Below are positions 163 to 12,302 of a stretch of DNA of 64,000 nt, in pieces. The position numbers and the translations under genes were made by a program. Positions within the stretch are counted from its first letter, which is position 1. Each line of letters starts with the position of its first letter. Source of the stretch: Escherichia phage JLBYU40; the sequence record NC_105514.1; one strand, written 5' to 3'. The notes below the pieces were generated by a model. It did not search any database and had not been told where the DNA came from. It saw nothing but the letters and a program-made list of their open reading frames with translations.

Positions 163-168
163 ATTGTT

Positions 169-246: not shown

Positions 247-250
247 AATA

Positions 251-409: not shown

Positions 410-430
410 TTTGCTTTCCTTCTCTTCACT

Positions 431-1210: not shown

Positions 1211-1236
1211 AGCGTATTTCTCGTGCTAGTTTAGTT

Positions 1237-1313: not shown

Positions 1314-1322
1314 ATAATTCAT

Positions 1323-1508
1323 TTACTCAGCTTTGAGTTTTTCAATAGCTGCATTAAGTTCCTTAAGAAACTCTTTTCGTACATTAAGACGATTAAGACT
1401 TACTAGTATATCATGTTTAAGTTCTTCGATGTATTTCTTCTCAACTTCAATATTGTTGATAGTGCTATCACGATGAACTTCTAGCTGTGCAATTACGTTC
1501 TTGGACAT
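1323..1508 (-). CDS. hypothetical protein (61 aa)
   Basis: ORF track; helical, charged sequence. Confidence 0.4.
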   Translation of the reverse strand: MSKNVIAQLEVHRDSTINNIEVEKKYIEELKHDILVSLNRLNVRKEFLKELNAAIEKLKAE

Positions 1509-1610
1509 GCTTGTTTCCTCAGTTATTAATGAAAATGGTATCTGTGGCTGAATTCGATGTCAGCAATGATAGCTGGTTGGCTACCGGTTTACTTAACTCT
1601 ACACAGAATT

Positions 1611-1688
1611 TGGCGGTTCCTGCTGGATTCGAACCAGCAACCCTCAACTTAACAAGATGCCGCTCTAACCAATTAGAGCTAAGGAACC
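1611..1688 (-). tRNA. tRNA-Asn (GUU)
   Basis: Acceptor GGTTCCT/AGGAACC, D-stem GCTC/GAGC, anticodon loop TTGTTAA, T-arm GCTGG-TTCGAAT-CCAGC, CCA encoded; anticodon stem has two mismatches. Confidence 0.55.
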
Positions 1689-2183
1689 ATATAAGTCAGA
1701 ACTAGAGTTAATACGTTCTAGATATTTACTAAGATCTCTAGAATTTATACTAAACCACTCATGTTCTTTTAAATCTTTGAAATACTGGTGAATTAGTTTT
1801 TCACCTTTTCGTTTGTCAAACCAAAAAGACCAATGCTCTAACTTATAATCCCTATAAGGGGAATAAGTCTGATATTGAGCTAATCTCTCTTTTGGATTTT
1901 GACTCATACCTATTTTATACTGATTTTTCCATGCAGGATTACTAATACAGTATACAAAACCTTCAGAAATAGGAAGTTTATTTTCCTGCTTAAACTTTAT
2001 AAAGGAAAGTGCAGCAAGTTTTCTCGAATACATAGTATTTGTATTCTTTTTGGTATTACCATTGGTTCCTGAAAGATTTATATATTCTTCCATAAATCTT
2101 TGGATTAGTTCTGCGGTTATATAGAAGGGCTCATTAGTAACAATACCTTTCTTTACCAAACTATCAAAAACTCTTGTATGCAC
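1665..2183 (-). CDS. T5orf172-domain (GIY-YIG-like) protein
   Basis: 172-aa ORF; motif YKIGMSQNPKERLAQYQTYSPY resembles the T5orf172 / MUG113 domain; 3' end overlaps the tRNA-Asn gene. Confidence 0.5.
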   Translation of the reverse strand: MHTRVFDSLVKKGIVTNEPFYITAELIQRFMEEYINLSGTNGNTKKNTNTMYSRKLAALSFIKFKQENKLPISEGFVYCISNPAWKNQYKIGMSQNPKERLAQYQTYSPYRDYKLEHWSFWFDKRKGEKLIHQYFKDLKEHEWFSINSRDLSKYLERINSSSDLYGSLALIG

Positions 2184-2204
2184 TACTTCTTTCCTTTAGT
2201 AATT

Positions 2205-2280
2205 TGGACGACCGCATGAGATTTGAACTCACATAAAAAGGATTTGCAATCCTTCGCCTAAGCCATTCAGCCAACGGTCG
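2205..2280 (-). tRNA. tRNA-Cys (GCA)
   Basis: Acceptor CGACCGT/GCGGTCG, anticodon arm AAGGA-TTGCAAA-TCCTT, T-loop TTCAAAT, CCA encoded. Confidence 0.65.
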
Positions 2281-2328
2281 GTTTATCTTGTTCTGTCATG
2301 TTGCTTCTCCAGTTCAATTTATGTAATT

Positions 2329-2357
2329 ATTATACAGAACTTTTGGAAACTAAGCAA
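2329..2357 (-). promoter_or_regulatory. sigma70-type promoter (-35 TTGCTT, 17 bp, -10 TATAAT)
   Basis: Plus-strand attata 2329-2334 and aagcaa 2352-2357; conserved cassette. Confidence 0.6.
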
Positions 2358-2627
2358 CTACATTTTTAAGAATTTGATGCCTTTCTTTTTCTTCTTATAT
2401 TTCCACGTTAATGGATTCTGCCGATTGTGAACGCTTGAGATCTTCGTCTCGTCAAAGTTCTTCAATATCATGTAATCACAAGATAATTGTTCTAATGGAA
2501 TGTGATCACCGTCAAAAGCATATACATAAGGCTGTTGACTAACACGATAATGATAGACTTTGTTAATTCTACGTTTTAGCGACTTATCAGCGCAGTAAAT
2601 AAAGAAGTTTTCAGGATGCATCAGCAT
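2358..2627 (-). CDS. hypothetical protein (89 aa)
   Basis: ORF track. Confidence 0.4.
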   Translation of the reverse strand: MLMHPENFFIYCADKSLKRRINKVYHYRVSQQPYVYAFDGDHIPLEQLSCDYMILKNFDETKISSVHNRQNPLTWKYKKKKKGIKFLKM

Positions 2628-2641
2628 CTCCTTCGATTTGG

Positions 2642-2713
2642 TGCACCCTGTTCGTATCGAACGAACCTCTCAAGCTCTTCAGGCAAGCGCTAATCCATCT
2701 CAGCTAAAGGTGC
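2642..2713 (-). tRNA. probable tRNA-Phe (GAA)
   Basis: Acceptor GCACCTT/AGGGTGC, D-stem GCTG/TAGC, anticodon loop CTGAAGA, T-arm GTTCG-TTCGATA-CGAAC; anticodon stem weak (two U.U). Confidence 0.4.
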
Positions 2714-2719
2714 AAATTT

Positions 2720-2796
2720 TGGCAAACCTACTAGGACTCGAACCTAGACCGTACGGTTTTGGAGACCGACATGCTGTCCAGTAACACTCTAGGAAT
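2720..2796 (-). tRNA. possible tRNA-Trp (CCA)
   Basis: T-arm CTAGG-TTCGAGT-CCTAG with encoded CCA, anticodon loop CTCCAAA; acceptor pairing imperfect, 5' boundary uncertain. Confidence 0.35.
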
Positions 2797-2804
2797 GCAG
2801 AAAT

Positions 2805-2881
2805 TGGCGTCCTGTGCGGGGATCGAACCCGCAAATCCTACCTTGAAAGGGTAGTGACTTTACCAGTTTGTCTAACAGGAC
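2805..2881 (-). tRNA. tRNA-Glu (UUC)
   Basis: Acceptor GTCCTGT/ACAGGAC, anticodon arm CTACC-CTTTCAA-GGTAG, T-arm GCGGG-TTCGATC-CCCGC, CCA encoded. Confidence 0.7.
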
Positions 2882-2888
2882 TTAAATT

Positions 2889-2979
2889 TGGTGTTGGATG
2901 ATGGAGTCGAACCACCCGAGACCCTTCCGAGTCGGCAGATTTACAGTCTGCTTCGCTACCTCTACGATACTAATCCAAC
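2889..2979 (-). tRNA. tRNA-Tyr (GUA), long variable arm
   Basis: Acceptor GTTGGAT/ATCCAAC, anticodon arm GCAGA-CTGTAAA-TCTGC, about 18-nt variable arm, T-loop TTCGACT, CCA encoded. Confidence 0.65.
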
Positions 2980-3042
2980 ATATTTAAAAGTATTCAAATA
3001 CTAGTTTAAACACTTTTAAATATGTTTCCGAATTAGATAACT

Positions 3043-3071
3043 ATTATATCAAGTTTTAAGGCACTGAGCAA
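3043..3071 (-). promoter_or_regulatory. sigma70-type promoter driving the tRNA operon (-35 TTGCTC, -10 TATAAT)
   Basis: Plus-strand attata 3043-3048 and gagcaa 3066-3071, 17-bp spacer. Confidence 0.5.
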
Positions 3072-3107
3072 GTCAAATTTTAAAGAACTTGCTCAGTGCT
3101 GTATTAG

Positions 3108-3383
3108 TTAGTCGAACTTAGGAGTGACAGTTAAGGAGAACGGAAGTTCGAAAACTTCTTCGCCCTCATTACTAACGGTAACTACACGACCTTTAAGTTC
3201 AGACATTAAAATATCAATATCAGCTTTTGCATCTGGAGCCATGCCAGCTTCAATACATTTAGCTTTAACTTCCGGTAAAAGCTCTACGTTATAGAGATAG
3301 AGCCACTCAATCTCACCTTCCCAGTCTTCCCAGGATTTGCAGATTGCACTTTCAATACCAGTTGCTACAACACGATTTTGCAT
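3108..3383 (-). CDS. hypothetical protein (91 aa)
   Basis: ORF track. Confidence 0.45.
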   Translation of the reverse strand: MQNRVVATGIESAICKSWEDWEGEIEWLYLYNVELLPEVKAKCIEAGMAPDAKADIDILMSELKGRVVTVSNEGEEVFELPFSLTVTPKFD

Positions 3384-3413
3384 TAATTAACTCCTTCATC
3401 AATTTATATAACT

Positions 3414-3443
3414 ATTATACCAGAAATTTAAAGTAAAAGGCAA
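3414..3443 (-). promoter_or_regulatory. sigma70-type promoter (-35 TTGCCT, -10 TATAAT)
   Basis: Plus-strand attata 3414-3419 and aggcaa 3438-3443, 18-bp spacer. Confidence 0.45.
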
Positions 3444-3473
3444 GTACATTTTTAAAAATTCTGTTTGGAGGAG

Positions 3474-3680
3474 CTAAACTCCAGATTTTTCGGCCAAGTC
3501 TAGACTAATAAGAGTTATAGCCATAATTGCTGCACCGTGTTCTTTTTCTCCGGTGTTTTTAGCAGAGTCTATAATATCCTTAATCTGTTCGTAATAACTT
3601 TTTACTTCTTGTTCAATGCCTGCCTCGGCTATCATGCCTTTAGCCATGAATCGTTGCATGGTAATTTCAGGATTAGCCAT
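3474..3680 (-). CDS. hypothetical protein (68 aa)
   Basis: ORF track; start overlaps stop of upstream small ORF (ATGGCTAA). Confidence 0.4.
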   Translation of the reverse strand: MANPEITMQRFMAKGMIAEAGIEQEVKSYYEQIKDIIDSAKNTGEKEHGAAIMAITLISLDLAEKSGV

Positions 3681-3840
3681 GTTGTTTCTCCAGTTTCATT
3701 TTTAATAGTTTACAGATGAAATCAACGTCTTCATCTGTGCCTAAGTCTCTATCCTCAAGGGTCGCCTTGAAGTTTTTCGTCAATTCCATGAGGATGACTT
3801 CCCTAGAACGACGTGTTGGCGGAGGTGGATGTCTATACAT
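3673..3840 (-). CDS. hypothetical small protein (about 55 aa)
   Basis: Hand-read ORF (MYRHPPPPTRRS...) with SD AAGGAAA upstream of ATG at 3840; stop overlaps next start. Confidence 0.35.
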   Translation of the reverse strand: MYRHPPPPTRRSREVILMELTKNFKATLEDRDLGTDEDVDFICKLLKMKLEKQHG

Positions 3841-3855
3841 CTTATTTCCTTAATT

Positions 3856-3932
3856 TGGTAGGGGTGGTGGGATTCGAACCCACAAAACCTGAATTTTAAG
3901 TCCAGTACCTATGCCAATTCGATTACACCCCC
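3856..3932 (-). tRNA. tRNA with UAA anticodon but short variable arm (identity uncertain)
   Basis: Acceptor GGGGGTG/CACCCCT, anticodon arm CTGGA-CTTAAAA-TTCAG, T-arm GTGGG-TTCGAAT-CCCAC, CCA encoded; D-arm poorly paired. Confidence 0.45.
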
Positions 3933-3939
3933 GTGTAAT

Positions 3940-4128
3940 TTAGTCAATTACTTTTGAAGCTTCAAGGTAGTCGATATAGTGTACGTTTTCTACCGTAATC
4001 ATATAATCTGCCACTTTATCCATAGCTTGGGCTTCAGAGGTAGCTCTGGCTAACCTATATCCTTTTTTATATTCATCAGAGTATTCTCTATCTTGAATAA
4101 ACACAACATAAACTACGTATAATTCCAC
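3940..4128 (-). CDS. hypothetical protein (about 62 aa; GTG start inferred)
   Basis: The 111-aa ORF in the track runs into tRNA genes; AGGGGG then GTG at about 4128 gives a tRNA-free CDS. Confidence 0.3.
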   Translation of the reverse strand: MELYVVYVVFIQDREYSDEYKKGYRLARATSEAQAMDKVADYMITVENVHYIDYLEASKVID

Positions 4129-4150
4129 TTGTAACCCCCTAATTAAGTTG

Positions 4151-4225
4151 GTGGCTCCCCGAGGATTCGAACCTACGTACCTTCCGGTTATGAGCCGGGT
4201 GCTCATACCATATGAGCTTGAGAAC
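4151..4225 (-). tRNA. tRNA with CAU anticodon (Met or Ile2)
   Basis: Acceptor GGTTCTC/GGGAGCC, D-stem GCTC/GAGC, anticodon arm CCCGG-CTCATAA-CCGGA, T-loop TTCGAAT; no encoded CCA. Confidence 0.5.
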
Positions 4226-4231
4226 CAAAAT

Positions 4232-4320
4232 CTGGCGGAAGAAGTGGGAATCGAACCCACAAGGCTATATTTCAAACCGACAGATTAGCAATCTGCTGCA
4301 ATACCGTTATGCTATTCTTC
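4232..4320 (-). tRNA. tRNA-Ser (GCU), long variable arm
   Basis: Acceptor GGAAGAA/TTCTTCC, anticodon arm GCAGA-TTGCTAA-TCTGT, long variable arm, T-arm GTGGG-TTCGATT-CCCAC, CCA encoded. Confidence 0.65.
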
Positions 4321-4342
4321 CGAATTTATAAGATATATTATA

Positions 4343-4864
4343 TTAGAAATTTAGCTTCATAGCAAGAAAATTTTTCAAGTTTTCGGTAGACATCTCATCT
4401 ACATCTACAGGAGAAACAAAGCCGTTTAATTTTCTAGCAAATTTTTCACCATCGGGATCATTGTCTCCAACAGCTACCAATTTAAAAGGTAGTAATTTCA
4501 GTTGCTTTAATAACGCTTTTCCTGGAGAAGAACCCAACATTGCTAGGGCTGGATAACCAGCGTTATGTAACGCAACTGCCTTAAATACAGATTCAGCAAT
4601 CAATACTACTTTTTCATCTCCATTGAGAGTTTCTAGTCCCCATACACACTGGGTAGTAGAATAAGTAAAGTATTTAGCTTCAAAGGGGCACTTACCATGA
4701 CCTTTTGGAGCAGAAGGATTATAAGTTTGATAGCCCCTCAACATCCCAGAGAAGTCATACAACGGGACTGTTAGCCATCCTTCTGGACTTAACCAGCAAT
4801 GATATTTATCTGTATCAAATCCCCTAGATAAGAGGTGCTGTGTTAGCTCATCAACATTCATATT
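4343..4864 (-). CDS. Toprim-like domain protein (hypothetical)
   Basis: Motifs IAESVFK and LVAVGDNDPDGEKFARKL resemble a Toprim acidic patch; start moved to MNVDEL. Confidence 0.4.
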   Translation of the reverse strand, partial: NMNVDELTQHLLSRGFDTDKYHCWLSPEGWLTVPLYDFSGMLRGYQTYNPSAPKGHGKCPFEAKYFTYSTTQCVWGLETLNGDEKVVLIAESVFKAVALHNAGYPALAMLGSSPGKALLKQLKLLPFKLVAVGDNDPDGEKFARKLNGFVSPVDVDEMSTENLKNFLAMKLNF

Positions 4865-4891
4865 TGGTTCCTCTCTCAAATTTATAGATAT

Positions 4892-4920
4892 ATTATACAG
4901 AGAATTTAGCATTCAAGCAA
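4892..4920 (-). promoter_or_regulatory. sigma70-type promoter (-35 TTGCTT, 17 bp, -10 TATAAT)
   Basis: Plus-strand attata 4892-4897, aagcaa 4915-4920. Confidence 0.6.
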
Positions 4921-5036
4921 TCAAATTTTTTAACTTTTTAGAGGAAAATCATAGGGCGCTTAAGGGTAACAGATAAGTGGTGAGGACCAAAATTTGTGAC
5001 CCCACTAAAAATCCGGGGGCAATTTTTAAAGACCCC

Positions 5037-5065
5037 TTGACATTTTCGCTGGGGTAGTGTAAAGT
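5037..5065 (+). promoter_or_regulatory. sigma70-type promoter (-35 TTGACA, about 17 bp, -10 TAAAGT)
   Basis: ttgaca at 5037-5042; TAAAGT/TATAT-like -10 about 17 bp downstream; followed by SD AGGAGG. Confidence 0.5.
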
Positions 5066-5127
5066 ATATGTTATGGATGAGTGATCAAAGAGACACACAT
5101 TTTCTATATACTAGGAGGTGTCAAAAA

Positions 5128-6114
5128 ATGACAGAAGAAGTAGCTAAGAGTCCTGAGACCGTCGCTAGCGTTGCAGCAGAACTGCACCGTCACGAGGAAT
5201 CAGATAAGAAAAAGTGGGAGAAGGTCAGAGCCTACGAAGAAAAACATCGTGAACACGATGATGAAGAAGATGACGATGATGAACATTGTCATAAATATGG
5301 AAAACATAAAATGCAAGAACCAGTAAACGTATTCACTAGTGGCTTCCCTGGCCTACTGGGTGGTTACCCAGCAAACGCAGGTGCTTTCGGTGGTGAAGGT
5401 ATGGGACTATTCGGAGCTATCCTAATCGGTGCTCTATTAACAGGTGGATTCGGTGGTTTCGGTGGATTCGGTGGACGTGGTGTAGTTGGTGAAGGTACCG
5501 CAGTTGATGCAGTACTTCAGAACCAAGATACCGCTAGTATTCTAGCAGCTATTAACACTACTCGTACAGAAGCTAATCAGGGTACTGGGGCTGTGTTAAG
5601 CGCAGTTAACAATGGTTTTAGCCAGACATCCCAAAACCAGAGCCGTGATACTCAGTCTGTACTAACTACGATTTATGGTACAGGTGCTAATCTGTCTAAT
5701 CAGATCTGCCAGGAAACTCGCAACGTTATTCAGGGTCAGTTCGATCTTTCTCGCCAGATTGATCAATCTTTCGCAGCTAACCAGATAGCTCGTGCACAAG
5801 ATAAATTTGATTCTGCACAGATCGCTTTCCAGCAGACTTTACAAACTAATAACCAGTTTGCCGCTGTTCAGGCTCAGATGTGTGCTAACCAGAACTCTCT
5901 GGAACGTCAGATCGCTGAATGTTGCTGTGAACTTCAGACTGCGATCGCTGGTGTAACTACTGCGCGTATCCAGGATGAGTTAGATGCATGTCGCCTACGT
6001 GAGGCAATCGCTGCGGGTAATGGTGCTAACGATCAGGTAATTAATCAAATCGCTGTAAGTCTTGGTGCAATCACTCAGACTCTGGCTGGTCTGCAGGCTA
6101 AACTGCCGGCTTAA
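5128..6114 (+). CDS. hypothetical protein: acidic/His-rich N-terminus, Gly-zipper hydrophobic segment, long Gln/Asn/Ala-rich helical region
   Basis: ATG 5128 after AGGAGG; GFGGFGGFGG and GAILIGALLTGG; codons biased to highly expressed E. coli-like usage. Confidence 0.6.
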   Translation: MTEEVAKSPETVASVAAELHRHEESDKKKWEKVRAYEEKHREHDDEEDDDDEHCHKYGKHKMQEPVNVFTSGFPGLLGGYPANAGAFGGEGMGLFGAILIGALLTGGFGGFGGFGGRGVVGEGTAVDAVLQNQDTASILAAINTTRTEANQGTGAVLSAVNNGFSQTSQNQSRDTQSVLTTIYGTGANLSNQICQETRNVIQGQFDLSRQIDQSFAANQIARAQDKFDSAQIAFQQTLQTNNQFAAVQAQMCANQNSLERQIAECCCELQTAIAGVTTARIQDELDACRLREAIAAGNGANDQVINQIAVSLGAITQTLAGLQAKLPA

Positions 6115-6135
6115 TATTAAGGGGAGGAGCCCATT

Positions 6136-6552
6136 ATGAGTAAATATGGTTTTGTAAATAACGGACTTAATCAAAGTATGGGCTCCCAGCAGCCCATTCC
6201 GGGTCTGGATAACCCCTACTTACAACAATTGCAACAGCGTTTAGCAGAAGCGCAACAGATGCAGCAACAACTCCAGCAAAACCCTGGAAGTGTGAGTCCT
6301 ATGCAAATGATGCAGCAAATGAGCGGGCAGTCGCAAATGCCTCAACAAATGCAGCAACAGGTGCCTCAGCAGCAAGTTCAGCAACAAACCCAACAACCGC
6401 AGGTTTCTGCGGAAGGACAGGCAGTACTAGCCCTTTTCGAAGACTTCGCAAAGACAGAGGATGGGAAACAGCTTGTATCACTTATGGGTAAGTTTAATAG
6501 CTTCTGCCAAAGCCAGGTTGCAAAAGCTCAAAATAGTGGTAATAACTCCTAA
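6136..6552 (+). CDS. hypothetical Gln-rich protein (138 aa)
   Basis: ORF with SD GGGGAGGAG upstream; about 35% Gln in the central region. Confidence 0.5.
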   Translation: MSKYGFVNNGLNQSMGSQQPIPGLDNPYLQQLQQRLAEAQQMQQQLQQNPGSVSPMQMMQQMSGQSQMPQQMQQQVPQQQVQQQTQQPQVSAEGQAVLALFEDFAKTEDGKQLVSLMGKFNSFCQSQVAKAQNSGNNS

Positions 6553-6561
6553 GGAGGAATT

Positions 6562-6756
6562 ATGTGTTGCAGAAAATCTGTTTCGTGCTGCCCAATGCCT
6601 GTAGCACGTTGTTGCTCTCCAGCAATGTTTACGCAAATACCGGCGTTCAATCCGTTTGCCTTTAAGCCTACTCTTATCCTGCCCCCTAGAGTAGATTTTC
6701 AGTCAAGATTGGCCTCCCGTATGGGTAGTTGCTGTAACAAGAGTATATGGTTCTAA
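6562..6756 (+). CDS. hypothetical Cys-rich small protein (64 aa, four CC doublets)
   Basis: Strong SD AAGGAGGA 5 nt before ATG; 8 Cys arranged as CC pairs. Confidence 0.4.
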   Translation: MCCRKSVSCCPMPVARCCSPAMFTQIPAFNPFAFKPTLILPPRVDFQSRLASRMGSCCNKSIWF

Positions 6757-6772
6757 GGAACCAAACAATAAA

Positions 6773-6806
6773 GCCCCTAGTCGAAAGACTTAGGGGCTTT
6801 TCTTTT
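6773..6806 (+). terminator. rho-independent terminator
   Basis: GCCCCTA/TAGGGGC stem followed by TTTTCTTTT. Confidence 0.6.
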
Positions 6807-6816
6807 ATCTTAAATA

Positions 6817-6851
6817 CAGAAAAGCCCTGCGCTCTCTAGGAAACGCAGGGC
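6817..6851 (-). terminator. rho-independent terminator for the convergent minus-strand gene
   Basis: GCCCTGCG/CGCAGGGC 8-bp stem; U-tract on minus strand (plus-strand agaaaa). Confidence 0.55.
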
Positions 6852-6876
6852 TTATTTCAGATGTTACATGCGGGTA

Positions 6877-7824
6877 TTATTTATTACGCATATCCATAAT
6901 CATTTGGCCATCATAGCCAGTGCCAACCACAGTCTGCGGTACACCACCTTGGTATTTCTGAGCACGAATCATTTCAACTTCCAGTTGCTTCCAGCGAATC
7001 ATCTCAGGAGTAATGGTACGTTGCAATGCGGCGTTAGCTTCAGCTTCTTTCTTAGCTGCATATAGTTTAGCATCTGCGTCACGTTCATTGGCAATAGCTT
7101 GGTTGTTGCGAGCTTCACGGTCTGCTTCTGCTTGTTTAACTTTTTGCTGTGCTTCCTGTTCAACGCGAGCCAGTTCAGCTTTCGCAGCATTAACTTGCTC
7201 TTCACGAACTTTGGTATTCTGTACCTGTTCCATGATTACCGGTGGCAAAGTAATATCCTGAAGGAATACCTGCTTAACTGTATAACCATATGGGCGTGCA
7301 TACTCTTCAACTTCCTGTTGAATTGCAGTTTGCAATTGAGCCTGAATTTTAGCATCAAACAAATCTTGTGCTTTAGGTACAGACTTACCAAACTCACGAA
7401 TAGTAGACAGTAATTTTTCAGTTACATACTTGTCTAGTGCCTGATCCTGAGTACCTGCGTTAATACGGTTAATTGGTGCCTTAGAACCATCAAACTGCAA
7501 CATAACAGTCAGGTCAACAGTGGATTTAAACTTATCCTGGCTAGGAACCTGAAGTTTATCTAATTTTACAGCAATATCTTTTGTACTAAAAGTGTCGAAA
7601 GATGCAAATGGGTTTACAAGATGGAAACCTGGTAATACTGGGTTAGGATCTACTTTACCCAGAAATGTTTGGGTTTTAACCGTACCATCAGAAACAATAG
7701 TATATGAATTAAAAGCTAGGATTAAACCTGCTAAACCAACTACAGCACCAATACCCCAACGTTTAATAGTACGAATTACTTTCTGCTCAGAAGTCAGTTC
7801 TTTCATATTTTTAGTATTAAACAT
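6877..7824 (-). CDS. SPFH / band-7 (prohibitin/HflK-like) membrane protein
   Basis: N-terminal TM helix (GIGAVVGLAGLILAF), then SPFH-like core and Ala/Glu/Gln-rich coiled coil. Confidence 0.6.
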   Translation of the reverse strand: MFNTKNMKELTSEQKVIRTIKRWGIGAVVGLAGLILAFNSYTIVSDGTVKTQTFLGKVDPNPVLPGFHLVNPFASFDTFSTKDIAVKLDKLQVPSQDKFKSTVDLTVMLQFDGSKAPINRINAGTQDQALDKYVTEKLLSTIREFGKSVPKAQDLFDAKIQAQLQTAIQQEVEEYARPYGYTVKQVFLQDITLPPVIMEQVQNTKVREEQVNAAKAELARVEQEAQQKVKQAEADREARNNQAIANERDADAKLYAAKKEAEANAALQRTITPEMIRWKQLEVEMIRAQKYQGGVPQTVVGTGYDGQMIMDMRNK

Positions 7825-7858
7825 ATATTTCCTTTGTTTTAGTTACAGTTAATAAAAT

Positions 7859-7933
7859 TGGCCGAGGTGACAGGATTCGAACCTGCATAAAGGAATTTAG
7901 AAGACTCCTGCCTCTCCCTTAGACTACACCCCG
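7859..7933 (-). tRNA. tRNA-Arg (UCU)
   Basis: Acceptor CGGGGTG/CACCTCG, anticodon arm GGAGT-CTTCTAA-ATTCC, T-arm GCAGG-TTCGAAT-CCTGT, CCA encoded. Confidence 0.65.
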
Positions 7934-8433
7934 TTTAAGTATTTTTAAGAACTCTCGTAAAAACTCTTAAAAATACAGACGATACCGGGAGAGTCATAGG
8001 TCTCACTCATTAAGTATTTCAAGACAAAATACAGTAACGTCTATTATTTTCCAGTTTAAGTCAGGGTGACTTAGTGGTTATGTCCTGCGGTATATTGAGG
8101 ACTCGGTTAGGCTTGGGGTCATGACTTCCCGCCTTTTGCTGCTACTCAACAGGAGTTATCGCGAATTACCTGTGCTATTGTGCACCATTAGTGACATCTC
8201 TCATGCCAGCATTTCCCACTTTGTGGATAGCTTGAAAAACTACTCCGATATGGAGAAAGAACTTCACTATCCTAGAATACCTTCTAAAGTTCTTCTTTAG
8301 CCTGGACATAGTTAAATCGTAATAAAACTATTCAGCAGACCGGTTGGTTAGTCTGGAACCAACTACCGCGTGGTTTAGGCAGTGCGCAACTAACCTCGGA
8401 AGCTTTTACGTTAAAAGCATCAGTTATCCAGTT

Positions 8434-8508
8434 CTTACCGACCGTAGGATTCGAACCTACATCTTCCACCAGTTACGGCTTGATAATACCAATTATACTA
8501 GGACGGCA
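8434..8508 (-). ncRNA. unresolved tRNA-like element
   Basis: T-arm GTAGG-TTCGAAT-CCTAC and partial acceptor pairing, but no canonical anticodon arm found. Confidence 0.25.
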
Positions 8509-8730
8509 GTGTTACTACATAAGTGATTTCCACACCCCACTATTTATAAATTAGAGAAGAGTTTAGGGAAGAGGTTTCAGACGCCTCATTTTACACGTTC
8601 TAGCCACTAACCGGGATTGCCGCCCCCTGTGTACTAGTTTTACAACTAACCCACCGACTCTATTCAATGCACTCCGGTTGGGATTCTGCACTCAGCGTAA
8701 TCGGCTCGCTGTTCCCTAATTTATGAATAT

Positions 8731-8759
8731 ATTATACAGAATTTATAAGCATTTAGCAA
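8731..8759 (-). promoter_or_regulatory. sigma70-type promoter (-35 TTGCTA, 17 bp, -10 TATAAT)
   Basis: Plus-strand attata 8731-8736, tagcaa 8754-8759; points into the 800-nt non-coding stretch. Confidence 0.6.
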
Positions 8760-8767
8760 ATGAATTT

Positions 8768-9202
8768 TTAGAAAAATTCACTAGCGATCAAAGCAGTTGT
8801 TTTACCGTCATAACGTCCAGGAAATTCTGCCTTAATAGTTTTCATTAATAGAGCTTTGGTAATACCTGGGTTTAATTTAACCAGTTCTGCAAAATACTCA
8901 CGAATTTCAGTTTCAGTCAGTTGACTTGGCTGATACTCTTGCAGCATGGAATAAAGCAGTTGCTCATAGTCTACATCAGTAGGAACTTTCGTACCAACTT
9001 TAATAGCGCGCTGCTTTGCATTTTCTAGAGCCTTAATCTGAGCTTTCAGATAGGCTACAAACTCGGTTCGAGTAACAATGTCTTTATCAATACGTTGCAG
9101 GTCGCCAATCATGGTCTGAAGATTAAGTGCCCGCTCTTTATCACCGTGAGTACGTGCTAGACTAAGCAGTCCACGAAGGGTCATTAGGATATTTTCACCC
9201 AT
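8768..9202 (-). CDS. hypothetical protein (144 aa)
   Basis: ORF track; start overlaps stop of upstream small ORF. Confidence 0.5.
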   Translation of the reverse strand: MGENILMTLRGLLSLARTHGDKERALNLQTMIGDLQRIDKDIVTRTEFVAYLKAQIKALENAKQRAIKVGTKVPTDVDYEQLLYSMLQEYQPSQLTETEIREYFAELVKLNPGITKALLMKTIKAEFPGRYDGKTTALIASEFF

Positions 9203-9370
9203 TATTTCATCCCCAATGCTTGGTTAAAAGATTGTTCTGTCATAACTGCTGAGACTTTGGCGAAATCAAACTTTTTAGGGTTCGTAGTGATTTCAGCAAC
9301 GTTAGAAGTTTTAACAGTTTTCGTAGTACGAATACCGCGAGTGTTAACACCAATAATTACAACTGATTTC
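9202..9370 (-). CDS. hypothetical small protein (about 56 aa)
   Basis: Hand-read ORF MKSVVIIGVNTRGIRTT... with SD GAGGAAG; stop overlaps next ATG. Confidence 0.35.
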
Positions 9371-9403
9371 ATATTTCGCTTCCTCTCATTAATTTATGAA
9401 AGT

Positions 9404-9432
9404 ATTATACAGAAATTTAAGTATTTAAGCAA
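9404..9432 (-). promoter_or_regulatory. sigma70-type promoter (-35 TTGCTT, 17 bp, -10 TATAAT)
   Basis: Plus-strand attata 9404-9409, aagcaa 9427-9432. Confidence 0.6.
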
Positions 9433-9440
9433 GTAAATTT

Positions 9441-9908
9441 TTAAGTTTTAGTGACAACAGGTTTATAAAACGTATGTCCCTTAATCTTAGTTGTTTTCTT
9501 AAACTTCTTTGTCCAGTAAGGTTTATCTTTACCACTATGGAAGTATAGTGCTCCATGTGTAGGATCTTGTGGTAAATCAACGTAGTATATCACTCTAGCT
9601 AAATTCTTAGCGGTTTGCCAAGCCTCATCAGTTTTATCAACTTTTGGTCTCTTAGATACCCAAGAGAACTGGTTAGACTGATATACTACTTTACAGTAGG
9701 AATCTGGGAATTTACCGGAGTTTACACGGTTTTTAGTAACATGTGCAATCGCCGTCATTCCCTTTATGCCCTCACCACGACTTTCGAAATAGATATTTTT
9801 AGCAATGCAATCTATTTCTTTTGCATCGTGCGATGCCTGACTACTAAAGCTGAAGGTAAGGGCAGCTACTAAAAGCAAAGCTGCCTTCATTCTTTTTACT
9901 ACTGCCAA
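9441..9908 (-). CDS. secreted cell-wall hydrolase, SleB-like (Hydrolase_2 family)
   Basis: N-terminal signal peptide (MKAALLLVAALTFSFSSQA); motifs resembling SleB-type cell wall hydrolases. Confidence 0.5.
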   Translation of the reverse strand: MAVVKRMKAALLLVAALTFSFSSQASHDAKEIDCIAKNIYFESRGEGIKGMTAIAHVTKNRVNSGKFPDSYCKVVYQSNQFSWVSKRPKVDKTDEAWQTAKNLARVIYYVDLPQDPTHGALYFHSGKDKPYWTKKFKKTTKIKGHTFYKPVVTKT

Positions 9909-10213
9909 TCATATTCAACACGATTGGGATTTTCTTTATACCCTAAGTCAAGCAAATCATTACGCATATTTTGCTTAGCTACTGGGTTCGAGGTTACTAG
10001 TACCACTTTCTTTGGTCTCTGCCCAAATTCTAAGAGTAAACGAAGAATTTGATAACCTTCCATACCATCTACAGCCAAGTCATTATCCATATAAACGAAA
10101 TGGCCTGTGGTATCAGTTTTATTCAGAAACTCTACAGCGGCTTCTGGGGTTCGAATGATAATGTCCATTCCGTGAAGATTGCGCACGTCATCAATCAAAA
10201 TATGAAAAGTCAT
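9899..10213 (-). CDS. stand-alone CheY-like receiver-domain protein (putative)
   Basis: ILIDD near N-terminus, central YMDNDLAVDGMEG, VVLVTSN, later Lys: pattern of response-regulator receiver domains. Confidence 0.4.
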   Translation of the reverse strand: MTFHILIDDVRNLHGMDIIIRTPEAAVEFLNKTDTTGHFVYMDNDLAVDGMEGYQILRLLLEFGQRPKKVVLVTSNPVAKQNMRNDLLDLGYKENPNRVEYDWQ

Positions 10214-10243
10214 AATAGCCTCGTTTCATCAATTTAAAAATAT

Positions 10244-10272
10244 ATTATACACATAATTTAGTAAATTAGCAA
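10244..10272 (-). promoter_or_regulatory. sigma70-type promoter (-35 TTGCTA, 17 bp, -10 TATAAT)
   Basis: Plus-strand attata 10244-10249, tagcaa 10267-10272. Confidence 0.6.
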
Positions 10273-10655
10273 ATACATTTTTAAATTGTGAAACTAGTAA
10301 ACCGATAAACAGCCTAGAGGCGCCACAGGCCATATCTTATGAGCCATGTACCTTTGATCTAGGGTTTGAATCATCAATGAATACTTTGCATCTTTTAGCT
10401 TTAGAAGTTTAGAAGTTTGAGTTCTTTAAACTTTTCAGCTTTCATACTTAAATGTTGATCTTTGAAGTTGTGTCGGTAATATCAACGACGCTTTGTTTTT
10501 ACGTGTCAGATTAAATGTCTGATGTAATAAACATAATCTCCAATAGATTATACTTTATAGTATGGTCAGCGGTCTTATTTAACCTCGTATTTCAACCGCT
10601 GCTGCGAGGTAAGATGCTTGGGCTTTCGTCTACCGATTTACTAGCTTTTAAATTA

Positions 10656-11294
10656 TTACTCTACTTCAATGAAGGTAGAGGCGTTAGACTCGGACAGAAC
10701 AAAGTCAACATTTGTTGCAAAGTCCTGATATTCCTCGTCATGCTGTTTAATCAGCTTTTCCAGTTCCAGCGGATCAATCAAGAATGGGGTATTCTTGAGT
10801 TCCAGCAGGTTGAGCTGCATTTTAACTTCATCTTCGGAAGTTTTCTTATCGCGGGTAGCCATGCTATCCTGCAAACGCTCATATTTAGCATCAAACTGTG
10901 CTTTCTGCGTATTAAACTTAACCGTAGCGGCATGGAACTGCTTACGCATGTTAGCCAGCAGTTGGGCTTTAAGTTCCATAGAACGCTTAGCTTCAATTGC
11001 TTCCGCAACGGTCATCTTACGAGAGCCAATCTCAACGATTGTTTCAGCATTGCTTTTAATCAGAGCAGCTTTGATACGATCACGCTGGGACATCATATCC
11101 AGGAGAGATTGGAAATCTGCCTTAATACGAGCAGACAGATCGTCTACTTCGATTGCAGCGCCAACTACAACCTTATTTTTATCCTTACCTTCACCAACAG
11201 CGATCAGAAGCTGCTGTTCAGTAGCTTTACGGATTTTAGCTTCCAGAGATTTGATAGTTGCCAGAGCGCGGGTTTTAGAAATACGAGTAGTCAT
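10656..11294 (-). CDS. hypothetical protein (212 aa, helical)
   Basis: ORF track; the two long plus-strand ORFs over it are antisense artefacts. Confidence 0.55.
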   Translation of the reverse strand: MTTRISKTRALATIKSLEAKIRKATEQQLLIAVGEGKDKNKVVVGAAIEVDDLSARIKADFQSLLDMMSQRDRIKAALIKSNAETIVEIGSRKMTVAEAIEAKRSMELKAQLLANMRKQFHAATVKFNTQKAQFDAKYERLQDSMATRDKKTSEDEVKMQLNLLELKNTPFLIDPLELEKLIKQHDEEYQDFATNVDFVLSESNASTFIEVE

Positions 11295-11346
11295 TATTTG
11301 CTTCCTTATATGAAGTTTGAGATTTGAATTTGTTTAAAGTTGGTCT

Positions 11347-11464
11347 ATTACAGACCAATTGCCAGCAGAGTGCGCAGAACAGTATCGTTACTGTTATCAA
11401 TTTTAGGATTAGCACGATTTAGCAGATCAAAGATTTTCTGGACACCTGATTGACGTTCAGCCAT
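11347..11464 (-). CDS. possible small basic protein (frame open upstream without ATG)
   Basis: Frame ...NGKKATRNLGIRRMAERQSGVQKIFDLLNRANPKID... with optimal-looking codons; only in-frame ATG gives 38 aa. Confidence 0.2.
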
Positions 11465-11570
11465 ACGACGGATACCCAGATTACGAGTAGCTTTCTTACC
11501 ATTTTTACGAACATTTTTAGATACTGGCGTATTTGTTTTCCTTTTATTGTTTTCTCAAATTTATGAATAT

Positions 11571-11599
11571 ATTATACAGAATTTTGGGGCCGGAAGCAA
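11571..11599 (-). promoter_or_regulatory. sigma70-type promoter (-35 TTGCTT, 17 bp, -10 TATAAT)
   Basis: Plus-strand attata 11571-11576, aagcaa 11594-11599; cassette nearly identical to 8719-8745. Confidence 0.6.
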
Positions 11600-11600
11600 A

Positions 11601-12302
11601 TCAAATTTTCATTTTTTCGATCATAGCTGCAACACAATAGCTTTCAACTAAGGCATCAAATGCAGGATCATGCTTAACCGGATAGATCCCATAACGAATA
11701 GTGTCCATCTTCTCCATTTTAGCTATTGCCCAGCTAATAGCTTCGGTCTCTAGAGCCTTATAACTGTATCCAGCTTGCATCCAGAGATTACGAAGAGATC
11801 GAACATTACCCAAATTCCAGAATTTCCACGGAACTACCTCTTCATTGGTTCCAGCATGGAACGTGTTTGCAGAGTAGATAGTCATATCAAATTCTGGGCC
11901 ATTGCCATAATACAAAGCATTTTCGCCTAGAGCCAACTCCATAATATTTTGAGCCATAGAGAAGGCAGCATAGTTAGAGCCGAGCTTATTAGTACAGTGA
12001 TGTTTACCATTTTGGAAGGCAATCAGTTTTGGATTACGTTCCTTCATAGCTTCCATTATGTGAATAGCAGAGGGGCTATTTTTAGCTTGATCCATCCAGA
12101 ATGCTAGAGTAGATGCTGTAACTTTGGCACCAGAATTAAGCTGATCCTGCACATCCAAAGTAACAAATACTAAGTCAGGGTCTTTGTCAATCCCATGCAT
12201 AGCCACAAAAGCGAAAGAAGGCATTGCGATATGAGTAGTACCACAATCTCCTGGAGTTCCTAGAGATTCAATATCTAGCATACCAAATGGTTTTACTTTC
12301 AT
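11601..12302 (-). CDS. putative exonuclease (DEDD-like motif)
   Basis: N-terminal LDIESLGT resembles Exo I motif of DnaQ-like 3'-5' exonucleases; otherwise unassigned. Confidence 0.4.
   Translation of the reverse strand: MKVKPFGMLDIESLGTPGDCGTTHIAMPSFAFVAMHGIDKDPDLVFVTLDVQDQLNSGAKVTASTLAFWMDQAKNSPSAIHIMEAMKERNPKLIAFQNGKHHCTNKLGSNYAAFSMAQNIMELALGENALYYGNGPEFDMTIYSANTFHAGTNEEVVPWKFWNLGNVRSLRNLWMQAGYSYKALETEAISWAIAKMEKMDTIRYGIYPVKHDPAFDALVESYCVAAMIEKMKI

What the first reader, a model, noticed from the sequence alone, without database searches (positions are those of the whole stretch)
7934..8730. About 800-nt ORF-free transcription unit downstream of a strong promoter, containing a tRNA-like element
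The promoter at 8731-8759 fires leftward into roughly 800 nt with no convincing ORF on either strand before tRNA-Arg at 7859-7933. The stretch contains a T-arm-bearing tRNA-like element (8434-8508) that does not fold as a canonical tRNA, plus several GC-rich inverted repeats. This looks like one or more structured non-coding RNAs (aberrant tRNA, ribozyme or regulatory sRNA) rather than spacer.
Basis: seen in the sequence. Interest (0 to 1): 0.6.

Follow-up and report, generated by a model that had tools for sequence, protein, structure and literature searches.

The report
T5 RNAX: large tRNA-like-bearing noncoding RNA
The ORF-free stretch is this phage's copy of "RNAX", a roughly 790-nt non-coding RNA already annotated in phage T5 with unknown function. 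Comparison with relatives shows a conserved multi-domain fold that carries a tRNA-shaped domain without a working anticodon loop.

Summary
A strong sigma-70 promoter (8759-8731, minus strand) reads into about 790 nt with no conserved ORF, then tRNA-Arg(UCU) (7933-7859), an SPFH gene and the first intrinsic terminator (6853-6822).

The window is a T5-like phage. The homologous interval is already annotated in T5 RefSeq and in DT57C as misc_RNA rnaX, "stable RNA with unknown functions". The finding is therefore a rediscovery.

- **Not coding.** Substitutions show no codon periodicity, whereas both flanking genes do. Frameshifts and a 149-nt indel break every candidate ORF in relatives.
- **Structured.**
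  - A terminal helix P1 encloses the 149-nt insert that T5 lacks.
  - A core has a 12-bp covarying stalk carrying a tRNA-like domain (8507-8436; Rfam tRNA 35.5 bits; ARAGORN calls nothing).
  - Several covarying hairpins follow, ending in a 17-bp hairpin 5 nt before tRNA-Arg.
- **tRNA-like domain.** Its acceptor, D and T arms covary, but the anticodon arm differs freely between relatives. Some relatives replace the whole domain. It is a structural module, not a decoder.
- **Distribution.** A covariance model of the core finds it in a Pectobacterium T5-like phage of another subfamily.
- **Databases.** No Rfam family other than tRNA matches.

The function is unknown. The closest analogy is GOLLD and ROOL, large phage RNAs found next to tRNA islands.

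The parts
8731..8759 (-). Sigma-70 early promoter: -35 TTGCTA (8759-8754), 17-nt spacer, -10 TATAAT (8736-8731). The start site is predicted near 8724 and has not been mapped.
   Evidence: Consensus scan, 10 of 12 matches. Homologous to T5 'promoter P 16-17'. Conserved in all relatives, including Klebsiella and Pectobacterium T5-like phages.
7939..8727 (-). The RNAX homologue as a whole: a non-coding, multi-domain RNA running from the transcription start to the 3' hairpin.
   Evidence: 91-98% identical to T5 misc_RNA rnaX over 654 of its 719 nt. No codon periodicity (97/105/99 variable columns, p=0.84), against p=1e-13 and p=5e-59 for the flanking genes.
8709..8729 (-). 5' strand of terminal helix P1 (UAUUCAUAAAUUAGGGAACAG).
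   Evidence: 21-nt inverted repeat with 8541-8561, 86% complementary (I1). RNAalifold gives 13 pairs, a few of them with compensatory changes. In T5 and DT57C the same helix is closed by a short loop.
8541..8561 (-). 3' strand of terminal helix P1 (CUCUUCUCUAAUUUAUAAAUA).
8564..8712 (-). Module B, an insert of about 149 nt in the P1 loop. It includes the invariant leader hairpin CAGCG...CGCUG (8711-8693). It is absent from T5 and DT57C and present in most other relatives.
   Evidence: BLAST block maps. Leader hairpin, 5 bp, present in 17 of 17 sequences that cover it. A B-like module is kept in Pectobacterium phage DU_PP_V.
8396..8541 (-). Conserved core: GUGGGGUG box, stalk, tRNA-like domain and hairpin H.
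   Evidence: Covariance model R1 scores 174 bits here and 85.1 bits (E=1.6e-18) in DU_PP_V. The structure is 94.4% paired against 84.5% in shuffles (0 of 500 reach it) and 33-46% when partners are slid.
8514..8527 (-). 5' strand of the 12-bp interrupted stalk that encloses the tRNA-like domain.
   Evidence: 100% paired in 22 distinct sequences. 5 of 12 pairs change on both sides (helix 1). The stalk has the same shape but a different sequence in DU_PP_V (read directly).
8419..8432 (-). 3' strand of the stalk.
   Evidence: helix 1.
8436..8507 (-). tRNA-like domain.
- **Acceptor stem:** 6 bp plus a U.U mismatch at 5:68. Position 1:72 is G.U here and G/A in many relatives.
- **Canonical tRNA positions kept:** U8, A14, G18G19 and A21, with T arm GUAGG-UUCGAAU-CCUAC.
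- **Anticodon arm:** degenerate, a 3-bp stem with a 6-nt loop GUAACU.
- **3' end:** no encoded CCA.
   Evidence: Rfam tRNA 35.5 bits against a gathering score of 29. Not called by ARAGORN. The acceptor, D and T stems covary. The anticodon arm varies freely among relatives. The sequence folds as a four-way junction.
8402..8418 (-). Hairpin H (GCUUUU-AACGU-AAAAGC), directly 3' of the stalk.
   Evidence: Compensatory changes seen: GCUUC/GAAGC, GCUUAU/AUAAGC, GGUUC/GAACC (helix 5).
8341..8361 (-). Hairpin GUUGGUU-CCAGACU-AACCAAC, preceded by the conserved CUAAACCACG motif (8377-8368).
   Evidence: Read from the sequences. GSW6 and SB13 have GUUGAUU/AAUCAAC, a G:C to A:U change. The AAACCACG motif recurs in all architecture types.
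8192..8208 (-). Hairpin UGGCAU-GAGAG-AUGUCA.
   Evidence: De novo stem scan on the window-anchored alignment: 6 bp, 99.6% canonical, 3 pairs with changes on both sides.
8082..8102 (-). Hairpin GUCCU...AGGAC.
   Evidence: 5 bp, 100% canonical, up to 4 pair types per position.
8058..8072 (-). Hairpin E, AAGUC-ACCCU-GACUU. It is an island conserved as far as Klebsiella T5-like phages.
   Evidence: Conserved island. The basal pair switches between A:U and U:A.
7977..8042 (-). 3' sub-domain closed by a short stem (AGACG 8042-8038 with CGUCU 7981-7977) just before the terminal hairpin. It contains the CUUAAU motif.
   Evidence: Every architecture type has a 5-7 bp stem at this place with a different sequence: CUGACGG/CCGUCGG, CUGACAG/CUGGCGG, UGACUAG/CUAGUCA (read directly).
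7939..7976 (-). Hairpin F: 17 bp, AT-rich, UACG loop, 5 nt upstream of tRNA-Arg, with no U-tract after it. It is the likely 3'-end protector or processing site of RNAX.
   Evidence: no chance matches in the shuffles. Single copy in each of 497 phage records, including Klebsiella and Pectobacterium T5-like phages. Compensatory U:A to C:G in Klebsiella phages. The G.U pairs exist only on the transcribed strand.
7859..7933 (-). tRNA-Arg(UCU), co-transcribed downstream.
   Evidence: ARAGORN and Rfam, 49.3 bits.
6822..7824 (-). SPFH/Band 7 gene (7824-6877) and the first intrinsic terminator of the unit (6853-6822).
   Evidence: Pfam Band_7, E=2e-17. Terminator scan: 13-bp stem followed by a T-run.

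Best explanation
The interval encodes this phage's orthologue of T5 RNAX.

**Transcription and ends**
- RNAX is an early, non-coding RNA of about 790 nt.
- It is transcribed from a strong sigma-70 promoter as the first part of a unit that continues into tRNA-Arg(UCU) and an SPFH gene.
- Inferred: RNase P cleavage at the 5' end of tRNA-Arg, 5 nt after a 17-bp hairpin, would release RNAX with a hairpin-protected 3' end. That would explain why it accumulates as a 'stable RNA'.

**Fold (shown by comparison)**
- A terminal helix P1 has a loop that carries an optional 149-nt module.
- A core has a covarying 12-bp stalk and invariant linkers (AACACU and AAGA) that present a tRNA-shaped domain.
- Further hairpins follow, then a closed 3' sub-domain.

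**The tRNA-shaped domain (shown)**
- It keeps the acceptor, D and T arms, so it keeps the tRNA 'elbow'.
- It has no conserved anticodon loop and no free CCA end.
- It therefore cannot act as an adaptor in translation.

**Mechanism (inferred, low certainty)**
RNAX acts as an RNA in its own right. It would be a structured scaffold or decoy that displays a tRNA elbow to a tRNA-binding partner such as RNase P or another elbow reader. This would resemble the large GOLLD and ROOL RNAs that other phages encode beside tRNA islands.

**How the confidence splits**
The stated confidence of 0.7 covers identity, non-coding nature and the core fold, which I put at about 0.9. I put the proposed mode of action at only about 0.25.
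For: **Identity**
- T5 RefSeq and DT57C annotate the homologous interval as misc_RNA rnaX, 'stable RNA with unknown functions', downstream of promoter P 16-17 and abutting tRNA-Arg.
- The window matches T5 rnaX at 91-98% identity.

**Non-coding**
- There is no codon periodicity (p=0.84), against p=1e-13 and p=5e-59 in the flanking genes (per ORF).
- A 1-nt deletion in T5 (read from the sequences) and the module B indel break the candidate ORFs.

**Structure**
- The stalk is 100% paired with 5 of 12 compensatory pairs. The whole core is 94.4% paired, against 84.5% in shuffles and 33-46% when partners are slid.
- P1 is supported.
- Hairpins H, E, F, 8102-8082 and 8208-8192 covary.

**tRNA-like domain is not a decoder**
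- The anticodon arm takes several forms: a 6-nt loop GUAACU, CUUCACC, a long extension, or a 6-bp stem with a triloop.
- The whole domain is replaced in Eps7 and GSW6, while the stalk and linkers stay.

**Breadth**
- Covariance model R1 scores 85.1 bits (E=1.6e-18) in Pectobacterium phage DU_PP_V, subfamily Mccorquodalevirinae, which has the same layout.
- Hairpin F is single copy in 497 phage records.

**Unit architecture**
- The first terminator lies after the SPFH gene.

**Analogy**
- GOLLD and ROOL are encoded in phages near tRNA islands, and tRNAs sometimes sit in the GOLLD linker (PMC12286853).
Against: - The 'stable RNA' status rests on a database annotation. I could not trace the experiment behind it in the searchable literature.
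- The ends of the RNA are not mapped. The annotated T5 5' end lies 14 nt after the -10 box rather than about 7.
- The global folding energy is ordinary (z = -0.64).
- The RNA is mosaic. Modules are gained, lost or swapped. T5 lacks 149 nt. One metagenomic contig has lost the D arm. No single part other than the core flanks and hairpin F is therefore universally required.
- Much of the 3' half varies too little among the available sequences to test its helices.
- A predicted long-range helix (GUGGGGUG with hairpin E) is not supported in DU_PP_V.
- There is no evidence at all for a binding partner or for oligomerisation.
- Rfam's GOLLD and ROOL models do not match.
Confidence: 0.7

Rival explanations
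1. Decay product. The stretch would be a graveyard of degenerating tRNA genes and homing-endonuclease scars in the recombination-prone tRNA region. It would be transcribed only because it lies between a promoter and tRNA-Arg, with no function of its own.
For: - The architecture is highly mosaic, with insertions, deletions and swapped modules.
- An HNH-AP2 homing endonuclease gene is inserted in some relatives.
- The tRNA-like element has a degenerate anticodon arm, and one contig has lost its D arm.
- The folding energy is unremarkable.
Against: - The stalk flanking the tRNA-like domain is 100% paired with compensatory changes. A decaying tRNA gene has no reason to keep this.
- The linkers and core flanks are invariant while the interior varies.
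- The layout and core are retained in a different subfamily at low sequence identity.
- Hairpins H, E and F and helix P1 covary.
- Hairpin F is about 90% identical across genera whose proteins are 50-67% identical.
Confidence: 0.1
2. Cis-acting leader. The 790 nt would be a long 5' untranslated or processing leader that controls maturation of tRNA-Arg or expression of the downstream SPFH gene, not a trans-acting RNA.
For: - There is no terminator between the promoter and the end of the SPFH gene.
- Hairpin F sits 5 nt from tRNA-Arg in Tequintavirus and in DU_PP_V.
Against: - In Epseptimavirus and Klebsiella relatives, ORFs of 200-500 nt, or about 1 kb of other sequence, lie between hairpin F and tRNA-Arg or the SPFH gene. 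The RNA still keeps its own 5' and 3' boundaries.
- The T5 annotators treated it as a separate stable species.
Confidence: 0.12
3. Functional tRNA. The tRNA-like element would be a working, unusual tRNA, for example a suppressor, and the rest would be spacer.
For: - It scores above the Rfam tRNA gathering threshold.
- In some Epseptimavirus relatives ARAGORN calls a tRNA with anticodon UCA, which would read UGA.
- The canonical elbow nucleotides are kept.
Against: - In this window the anticodon stem has 3 bp and the loop has 6 nt, and ARAGORN calls nothing.
- Relatives carry a triloop or a long extension in place of the anticodon loop, or lack the domain altogether.
- No CCA is encoded, and both flanks are locked in a conserved 12-bp helix.
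- It scores 26.6-38.3 bits, against 49-74 bits for the neighbouring genuine tRNAs.
Confidence: 0.03
4. Small proteins. One or more of the short ORFs of 42-60 aa in the interval would be real genes.
For: - Several gene callers annotate 'hypothetical proteins' here in other records.
- The ORF at 8469-8332 is partly retained in T5 and some Epseptimavirus phages.
Against: - No ORF or frame shows codon-position bias.
- T5 carries a 1-nt deletion that truncates both 8309-8175 (minus) and 8121-8300 (plus).
- The ORF at 8691-8563 lies in a module that T5 lacks.
- The ORF at 8469-8332 starts inside the T stem with GTG and changes its residues through RNA-compensatory substitutions.
Confidence: 0.03

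Closest known systems
Phage T5 RNAX (gene rnaX, locus T5s08, NC_005859.1 40848-41566), and the same feature in DT57C
   Same: - Same position: between promoter P 16-17 and tRNA-Arg, downstream of the YqeY-like gene.
- 91-98% nucleotide identity over the shared parts.
- Same core, tRNA-like domain and 3' hairpin.
   Different: - The window's copy carries a 149-nt module (8712-8564) in the loop of helix P1 that T5 and DT57C lack.
- It lacks a 64-nt insertion that T5 has near 8071-8049.
- The function is unknown for all copies.
GOLLD and ROOL RNAs (large ornate RNAs of phages and prophages)
   Same: - Phage-encoded, several hundred to about 800 nt.
- Located beside or inside tRNA islands.
- Multi-domain, with a variable part. 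In GOLLD the variable part sometimes contains tRNAs.
- Function unknown (PMC12286853).
   Different: - No detectable sequence or structure similarity. Rfam models give no hit at E up to 10 on the window, or E up to 1 on eight variants.
- Oligomeric cage formation is untested.
- RNAX is much more mosaic.
- Its embedded element is a tRNA mimic, not a functional tRNA.
Other T5 'stable RNAs' of the tRNA region (RNAI, RNAIII, RNAIV, RNA1, RNA2, RNA3), and by recollection the T4 species 1 and 2 RNAs
   Same: - Non-coding RNAs of unknown function encoded among phage tRNA genes.
- Some are annotated as tRNA-like.
- Homologues of rnaIV, rna2 and rna3 are in this window.
   Different: - They are 73-172 nt long, whereas RNAX is 5-10 times longer and multi-domain.
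- There is no sequence similarity.
- The T4 comparison comes from memory and was not tested.
RNAs that embed a tRNA mimic in a larger RNA (tmRNA, bacterial Y RNA-like YrlA, viral 3' tRNA-like structures). This is from general knowledge.
   Same: A tRNA-shaped module with the elbow intact but no decoding function, used to engage tRNA-binding machinery.
   Different: - In tmRNA and viral tRNA-like structures the mimic includes the free, chargeable 3' end. Here both ends are buried in a stalk and no CCA is encoded.
- ARAGORN finds no tmRNA.
- Rfam finds none of these families.

Membership tests
T5 RNAX (rnaX) | Sequence homology to the annotated T5 and DT57C misc_RNA | tested here: met
   91.3% identity over 516 nt and 97.8% over 138 nt of the 719-nt T5 feature. 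96% identity to DT57C over 714 nt.
T5 RNAX (rnaX) | Position: from promoter P 16-17 to the 5' end of tRNA-Arg(UCU), on the same strand | tested here: met
   Searches compared.
T5 RNAX (rnaX) | Accumulates as a stable RNA in infected cells | not testable with these tools
   Only the database note 'stable RNA with unknown functions' is available. No paper describing the experiment was found.
Canonical tRNA | Scores above the Rfam tRNA gathering threshold | tested here: met
   35.5 bits against 29. Neighbouring genuine tRNAs score 36-61 bits in the window.
Canonical tRNA | 5-bp anticodon stem with a 7-nt loop (U33, purine 37) | tested here: not met
   The window has a 3-bp stem and a 6-nt loop GUAACU. 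The Rfam alignment skips these 18 nt. ARAGORN calls nothing. Relatives have a triloop, a long extension, or CUUCACC with C37.
Canonical tRNA | D and T arms with the elbow nucleotides (G18, G19, T-loop UUCRA) | tested here: met
   AAUUGGUA D loop and GUAGG-UUCGAAU-CCUAC T arm. Both stems covary.
Canonical tRNA | Free acceptor end with CCA (encoded or addable) after removal of leader and trailer | tested here: not met
   No CCA is encoded: the 3' side reads GGUCGGU-AAGA. Leader and trailer form a conserved 12-bp helix. Whether processing occurs cannot be tested here.
GOLLD / ROOL | Match to the Rfam covariance model of the family | tested here: not met
   No hit at E up to 10 on 7900-8790. No hit at E up to 1 on eight variant loci.
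GOLLD / ROOL | Phage-encoded, next to a tRNA island, several hundred nt, multi-domain | tested here: met
   Twelve tRNAs at 85-7933 of the window. About 790 nt. Domains supported. The family description is from PMC12286853.
GOLLD / ROOL | Self-assembly into a homo-oligomeric RNA cage | not testable with these tools
   This needs cryo-EM, SEC-MALS or native gels on the transcript.
tmRNA | tRNA-like domain formed by the 5' and 3' ends, plus a tag reading frame | tested here: not met
   ARAGORN reports no tmRNA in the window. Rfam gives no tmRNA hit.

The most novel reading that the evidence does not exclude
RNAX would be the founding member of an undescribed class of large, modular, structured phage RNAs specific to T5-like phages (Demerecviridae), absent from Rfam. 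In this reading it does the same kind of job as GOLLD or ROOL beside tRNA islands. It would use a stalk-mounted tRNA mimic to capture a host or phage tRNA-binding factor, or to assemble into a higher-order RNA particle. It would also be directly testable in E. coli with T5.
Probability: 0.3. Interest if true: 0.75.

Novelty: already known. Interest (0 to 1): 0.45.

Why it matters
Large structured RNAs encoded next to phage tRNA genes (GOLLD, ROOL) have spectacular structures and no known function. They mostly come from poorly tractable hosts.

RNAX is a comparably sized, conserved, multi-domain RNA in the classic coliphage T5 and in hundreds of its relatives. It has been annotated for years but never explained, and it is not in Rfam.

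If it is a functional RNA, two things follow:
- T5 with E. coli would be an easy genetic system for asking what such RNAs do.
- The stalk-mounted tRNA mimic gives a concrete handle for pull-downs, point mutants and deletions.

If it is only a processed leader, the result still corrects many phage records that call the element tRNA-Sec, tRNA-Ser, tRNA-Pro or 'hypothetical protein'.

Tried and rejected
- **Rfam scans.** E up to 1 over 1-12000, E up to 10 over 7900-8790, and E up to 1 over eight variant loci gave only tRNA hits plus noise (Hrs13 19 bits, SpF41, SNORA57). No GOLLD, ROOL, tmRNA, ribozyme or riboswitch matched.
- **Global folding.** z = -0.64, not informative.
- **Long-range helix.** RNAalifold predicted GUGGGGUG (8540-8533) pairing with CACCCUGAC (8068-8060). 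I rejected it as unsupported. Both sides are invariant. The partner is itself a local hairpin. DU_PP_V has CGGGGUG but no complementary partner.
- **De novo stem scan.** It produced many weak candidates that I did not adopt.
- **Hairpin F as a repeated signal.** It occurs once in the window and once per genome.
- **Collection scans.** Patterns from the core flank recovered only T5-like phages in viral contigs and metagenome contigs, plus chance matches in unrelated contigs.
- **Host search.** The core has no match in 5,426 complete E. coli genomes.
- **Literature.** Searches for RNAX or T5 stable RNAs found no paper describing it.
- **Aeromonas phage AhP_Mru1.** This Shenzhenvirus shows no comparable ORF-free gap in the annotated stretch beside its endolysin, and model R1 gave no hit there.
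- **Pre-F stem.** MAFFT plus RNAalifold on the 3' domain failed to put this stem in register. It is supported only by direct reading of each sequence type.
Full report

The region is 99% identical to many T5-like phages (Tequintavirus).

On the minus strand, a near-consensus sigma-70 promoter lies at 8759-8731 (TTGCTA, 17 nt, TATAAT). It is followed by about 790 nt in which the longest ORF on either strand is 60 aa. tRNA-Arg(UCU) follows at 7933-7859.

The Rfam tRNA model matches 8507-8436 at 35.5 bits, above the gathering score of 29, but it skips the 18 nt of the anticodon arm. ARAGORN does not call the element.

Two points need correcting:
- The most conspicuous inverted repeat is an AT-rich 17-bp hairpin (7976-7939), not a GC-rich one.
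- The transcription unit does not end at tRNA-Arg. The first intrinsic terminator is at 6853-6822, after an SPFH/Band 7 gene.

**It is already annotated**

In the T5 RefSeq record the homologous stretch (40848-41566, minus strand) is a misc_RNA: gene rnaX, locus T5s08, "RNAX, stable RNA with unknown functions". It lies directly between "promoter P 16-17" and tRNA-Arg. DT57C carries the same annotation.

The window matches T5 rnaX at 91-98% identity over 654 of its 719 nt. T5 annotates eight such stable RNAs in its tRNA region.

I found no searchable paper that describes RNAX. The "stable RNA" status therefore rests on the database note alone.

**It does not code for protein**

I projected 54 distinct homologous sequences onto the window and counted variable columns by codon position:

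| Region | Position 1 | Position 2 | Position 3 | p |
|---|---|---|---|---|
| RNAX | 97 | 105 | 99 | 0.84 |
| Flanking YqeY-like gene | 38 | 17 | 91 | 1e-13 |
| Flanking SPFH gene | 45 | 19 | 229 | 5e-59 |

None of the five individual ORFs shows periodicity.

Further points against coding:
- T5 carries a 1-nt deletion (CTAGGATAGTG to CTAGGTAGTG) that truncates both 8309-8175 (minus) and 8121-8300 (plus).
- The ORF at 8691-8563 lies in a 149-nt module that T5 and DT57C lack.
- The only substantial ORF found in this position in any relative is a 160-aa HNH-AP2 homing endonuclease. It is inserted between the promoter and the core in some Epseptimavirus genomes.

**It is a modular, structured RNA**

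BLAST block maps against 16 annotated relatives, about 30 viral contigs and about 12 metagenomic contigs show conserved islands separated by swapped or missing modules.

*Helix P1.* The first about 20 nt of the transcript (8729-8709) pair with 8561-8541 (I1; 13 pairs with some compensatory changes). In T5 and DT57C this helix is closed by a 6-nt loop. In the window and most relatives, its loop carries module B (8712-8564), which begins with an invariant hairpin at 8711-8693.

*Core (8541-8396).* An invariant GUGGGGUG box is followed by a 12-bp interrupted stalk (8527-8514 with 8432-8419). The stalk encloses the tRNA-like domain through invariant linkers (AACACU on the 5' side, AAGA on the 3' side). 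Hairpin H follows at 8418-8402.

On 22 distinct sequences:
- The stalk is 100% paired, and 5 of its 12 pairs change on both sides.
- The whole core structure is 94.4% paired. Column shuffles give 84.5% (0 of 500 reach the observed value). Sliding the partners gives 33-46%.

*Further hairpins.*
- 8361-8341 (read).
- 8208-8192 and 8102-8082.
- Hairpin E at 8072-8058, which covaries at its base.
- A short stem closing a 3' sub-domain. It is present with a different sequence in every architecture type.
- Hairpin F, which has a compensatory U:A to C:G change in Klebsiella phages. Its G.U pairs exist only in the transcribed strand.

*Caveats.* The global folding energy is ordinary (z = -0.64). I reject a predicted long-range helix between the GUGGGGUG box and hairpin E, because a distant relative does not support it.

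**The tRNA-like element is a structural domain, not a tRNA**

It keeps U8, A14, G18G19 and A21, the T arm GUAGG-UUCGAAU-CCUAC and a 6-bp acceptor stem. These stems covary. For example, the acceptor is GCCGUCC/GGUCGGU here, GCCGACC in T5 and GCCGAUC/GAUCGGU in DT57C, and the D stem is GUAU/UUAU here but AGUU/GACU in Klebsiella phages.

The anticodon arm is not conserved:

| Phages | Anticodon arm |
|---|---|
| This window and T5 | 3-bp stem with a 6-nt loop GUAACU |
| Some Epseptimavirus | CUUCACC; ARAGORN calls "SeC/tca" |
| Sugarland-like Klebsiella phages | Extension about 14 nt longer |
| Pectobacterium phage DU_PP_V | 6-bp stem with a triloop |

In Eps7, GSW6 and others the whole domain is replaced by an unrelated hairpin between the same stalk and linkers.

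No CCA is encoded, and both flanks are locked in the stalk. The element scores 26.6-38.3 bits in the tRNA model across relatives, against 49-74 bits for the genuine tRNAs beside it. This explains why public records label it variously as Pseudo-TAA, OTHER, Sec, Ser or Pro.

**Distribution**

- A covariance model of the core (R1) scores 85.1 bits (E=1.6e-18) in Pectobacterium phage DU_PP_V of subfamily Mccorquodalevirinae. There the same layout recurs: promoter, P1, B-like module, stalk plus tRNA mimic, hairpin H, hairpin F, tRNA-Arg.
- Hairpin F occurs exactly once per genome in 497 phage records, covering Escherichia, Salmonella, Klebsiella and Pectobacterium T5-like phages.
- Pattern scans of viral and metagenome collections recovered only T5-like phages.
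- The core has no match in 5,426 complete E. coli genomes.
- Rfam 15 has no family for it.

**How it most likely works**

Shown:
- The RNA is non-coding.
- Several of its helices are under selection.
- It has its own conserved 5' boundary (P1 and the leader hairpin) and 3' boundary (hairpin F), even where other genes separate it from tRNA-Arg.
- It presents a tRNA elbow on a stalk.

Inferred:
- RNase P cleavage at the 5' end of tRNA-Arg, 5 nt after hairpin F, would release an RNA with a hairpin-protected 3' end. This fits the annotated "stable RNA", whose 3' end abuts tRNA-Arg.
- RNase P might also nick at 8507/8508, leaving the two halves held together by the stalk.
- The most plausible role is a trans-acting scaffold or decoy that engages a reader of the tRNA elbow.

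The general analogy is to GOLLD and ROOL. They are phage-encoded, lie near tRNA islands, reach about 600-800 nt, sometimes carry tRNAs in a variable linker, and have unknown function (PMC12286853). Membership in those families was tested and failed. The analogy is one of context and size only.

Rival explanations:
- **Decayed tRNA array.** Contradicted by the covarying stalk and the conservation across subfamilies.
- **Cis-acting leader.** Weakened by the retained boundaries where the downstream genes differ.
- **Functional or suppressor tRNA.** Contradicted by the anticodon arm, the missing CCA and the stalk.
- **Small proteins.** Contradicted by the periodicity test and the frameshifts.

**Verdict**

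This analysis adds four things:
- A domain map with covariation support.
- The demonstration that the "pseudo-tRNA" is a stalk-mounted mimic with a freely varying anticodon arm.
- The finding that the window's copy carries a 149-nt module that T5 lost.
- The wider distribution of the family in Demerecviridae.

Interest is moderate. This is not a new discovery. It is an uncharacterised, tractable, large phage RNA that is absent from Rfam.

Noticed in passing
window 4149-4226 (-): The Rfam tRNA model hits here at 40.3 bits, but ARAGORN misses it. It is 97% identical to the T5 gene annotated tRNA-Ile2(CAU). The window therefore holds at least 13 tRNA genes, not 12.
   Followed up: partly
window 496-598, 617-741, 1536-1608 (-): These are homologues (96-100% identity) of three other T5 'stable RNAs of unknown function': rnaIV, rna2 (annotated tRNA-like) and rna3 (annotated putative tRNA-like). 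They are further uncharacterised non-coding RNAs in the same tRNA region.
   Followed up: partly
window 8768-9202 (-): The gene directly upstream of the RNAX promoter is annotated 'tRNA amidotransferase' in relatives. It has only a weak Pfam YqeY match (20.9 bits, below the cut-off of 27). From general knowledge, YqeY is related to the tRNA-binding tail of GatB, so the protein is a speculative partner for the tRNA mimic. It is adjacent in Tequintavirus and Epseptimavirus but not in Sugarland-like Klebsiella phages.
   Followed up: partly
L007:1773-2255 (-); also L016, L060, L084: A 160-aa HNH endonuclease with an AP2-like DNA-binding domain is inserted between the promoter and the RNAX core in some Epseptimavirus genomes, replacing module B. 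This suggests that homing endonucleases drive the mosaic structure of this locus.
   Followed up: partly
L085 (metagenome contig OLXE01000031.1), around 714-850: One T5-like contig has a 10-nt deletion that removes most of the D arm of the tRNA-like domain. The cause is either a viable natural variant or an assembly error.
   Followed up: no
L007, L008, L016, L084 (Epseptimavirus and a metagenome contig): In these relatives the tRNA-like domain has a 7-nt loop CUUCACC, and ARAGORN calls it tRNA-SeC(tca), a UGA-reading anticodon. Position 37 is C and the 31:39 pair is mismatched, so it is probably not functional. A suppressor role was not excluded experimentally.
   Followed up: partly
window 8761-8780 (-), overlapping the stop codon of the upstream gene and lying just upstream of the -35 box: An AT-rich inverted repeat (UGAAUUUUU-CU-AAAAAUUCA, I8) lies at the end of the YqeY-like gene, immediately before the RNAX promoter. 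It may be a 3' stem-loop of the upstream message.
   Followed up: no
window 9395-9440 (-), and other sites in relatives: The RNAX promoter belongs to a family of near-identical T5 early promoters. There are 77-87% matches over about 55 nt at two or three other positions in each relative. One such copy sits upstream of the 9202-9372 gene in this window.
   Followed up: no
L087:5620-5770 (Pectobacterium phage DU_PP_V): DU_PP_V has an extra 5' hairpin domain (CAUAAAUUAAAG...CUUUAAUUUAUG, enclosing about 72 nt) ahead of a second P1-like helix. The 5' helix therefore appears duplicated there.
   Followed up: no
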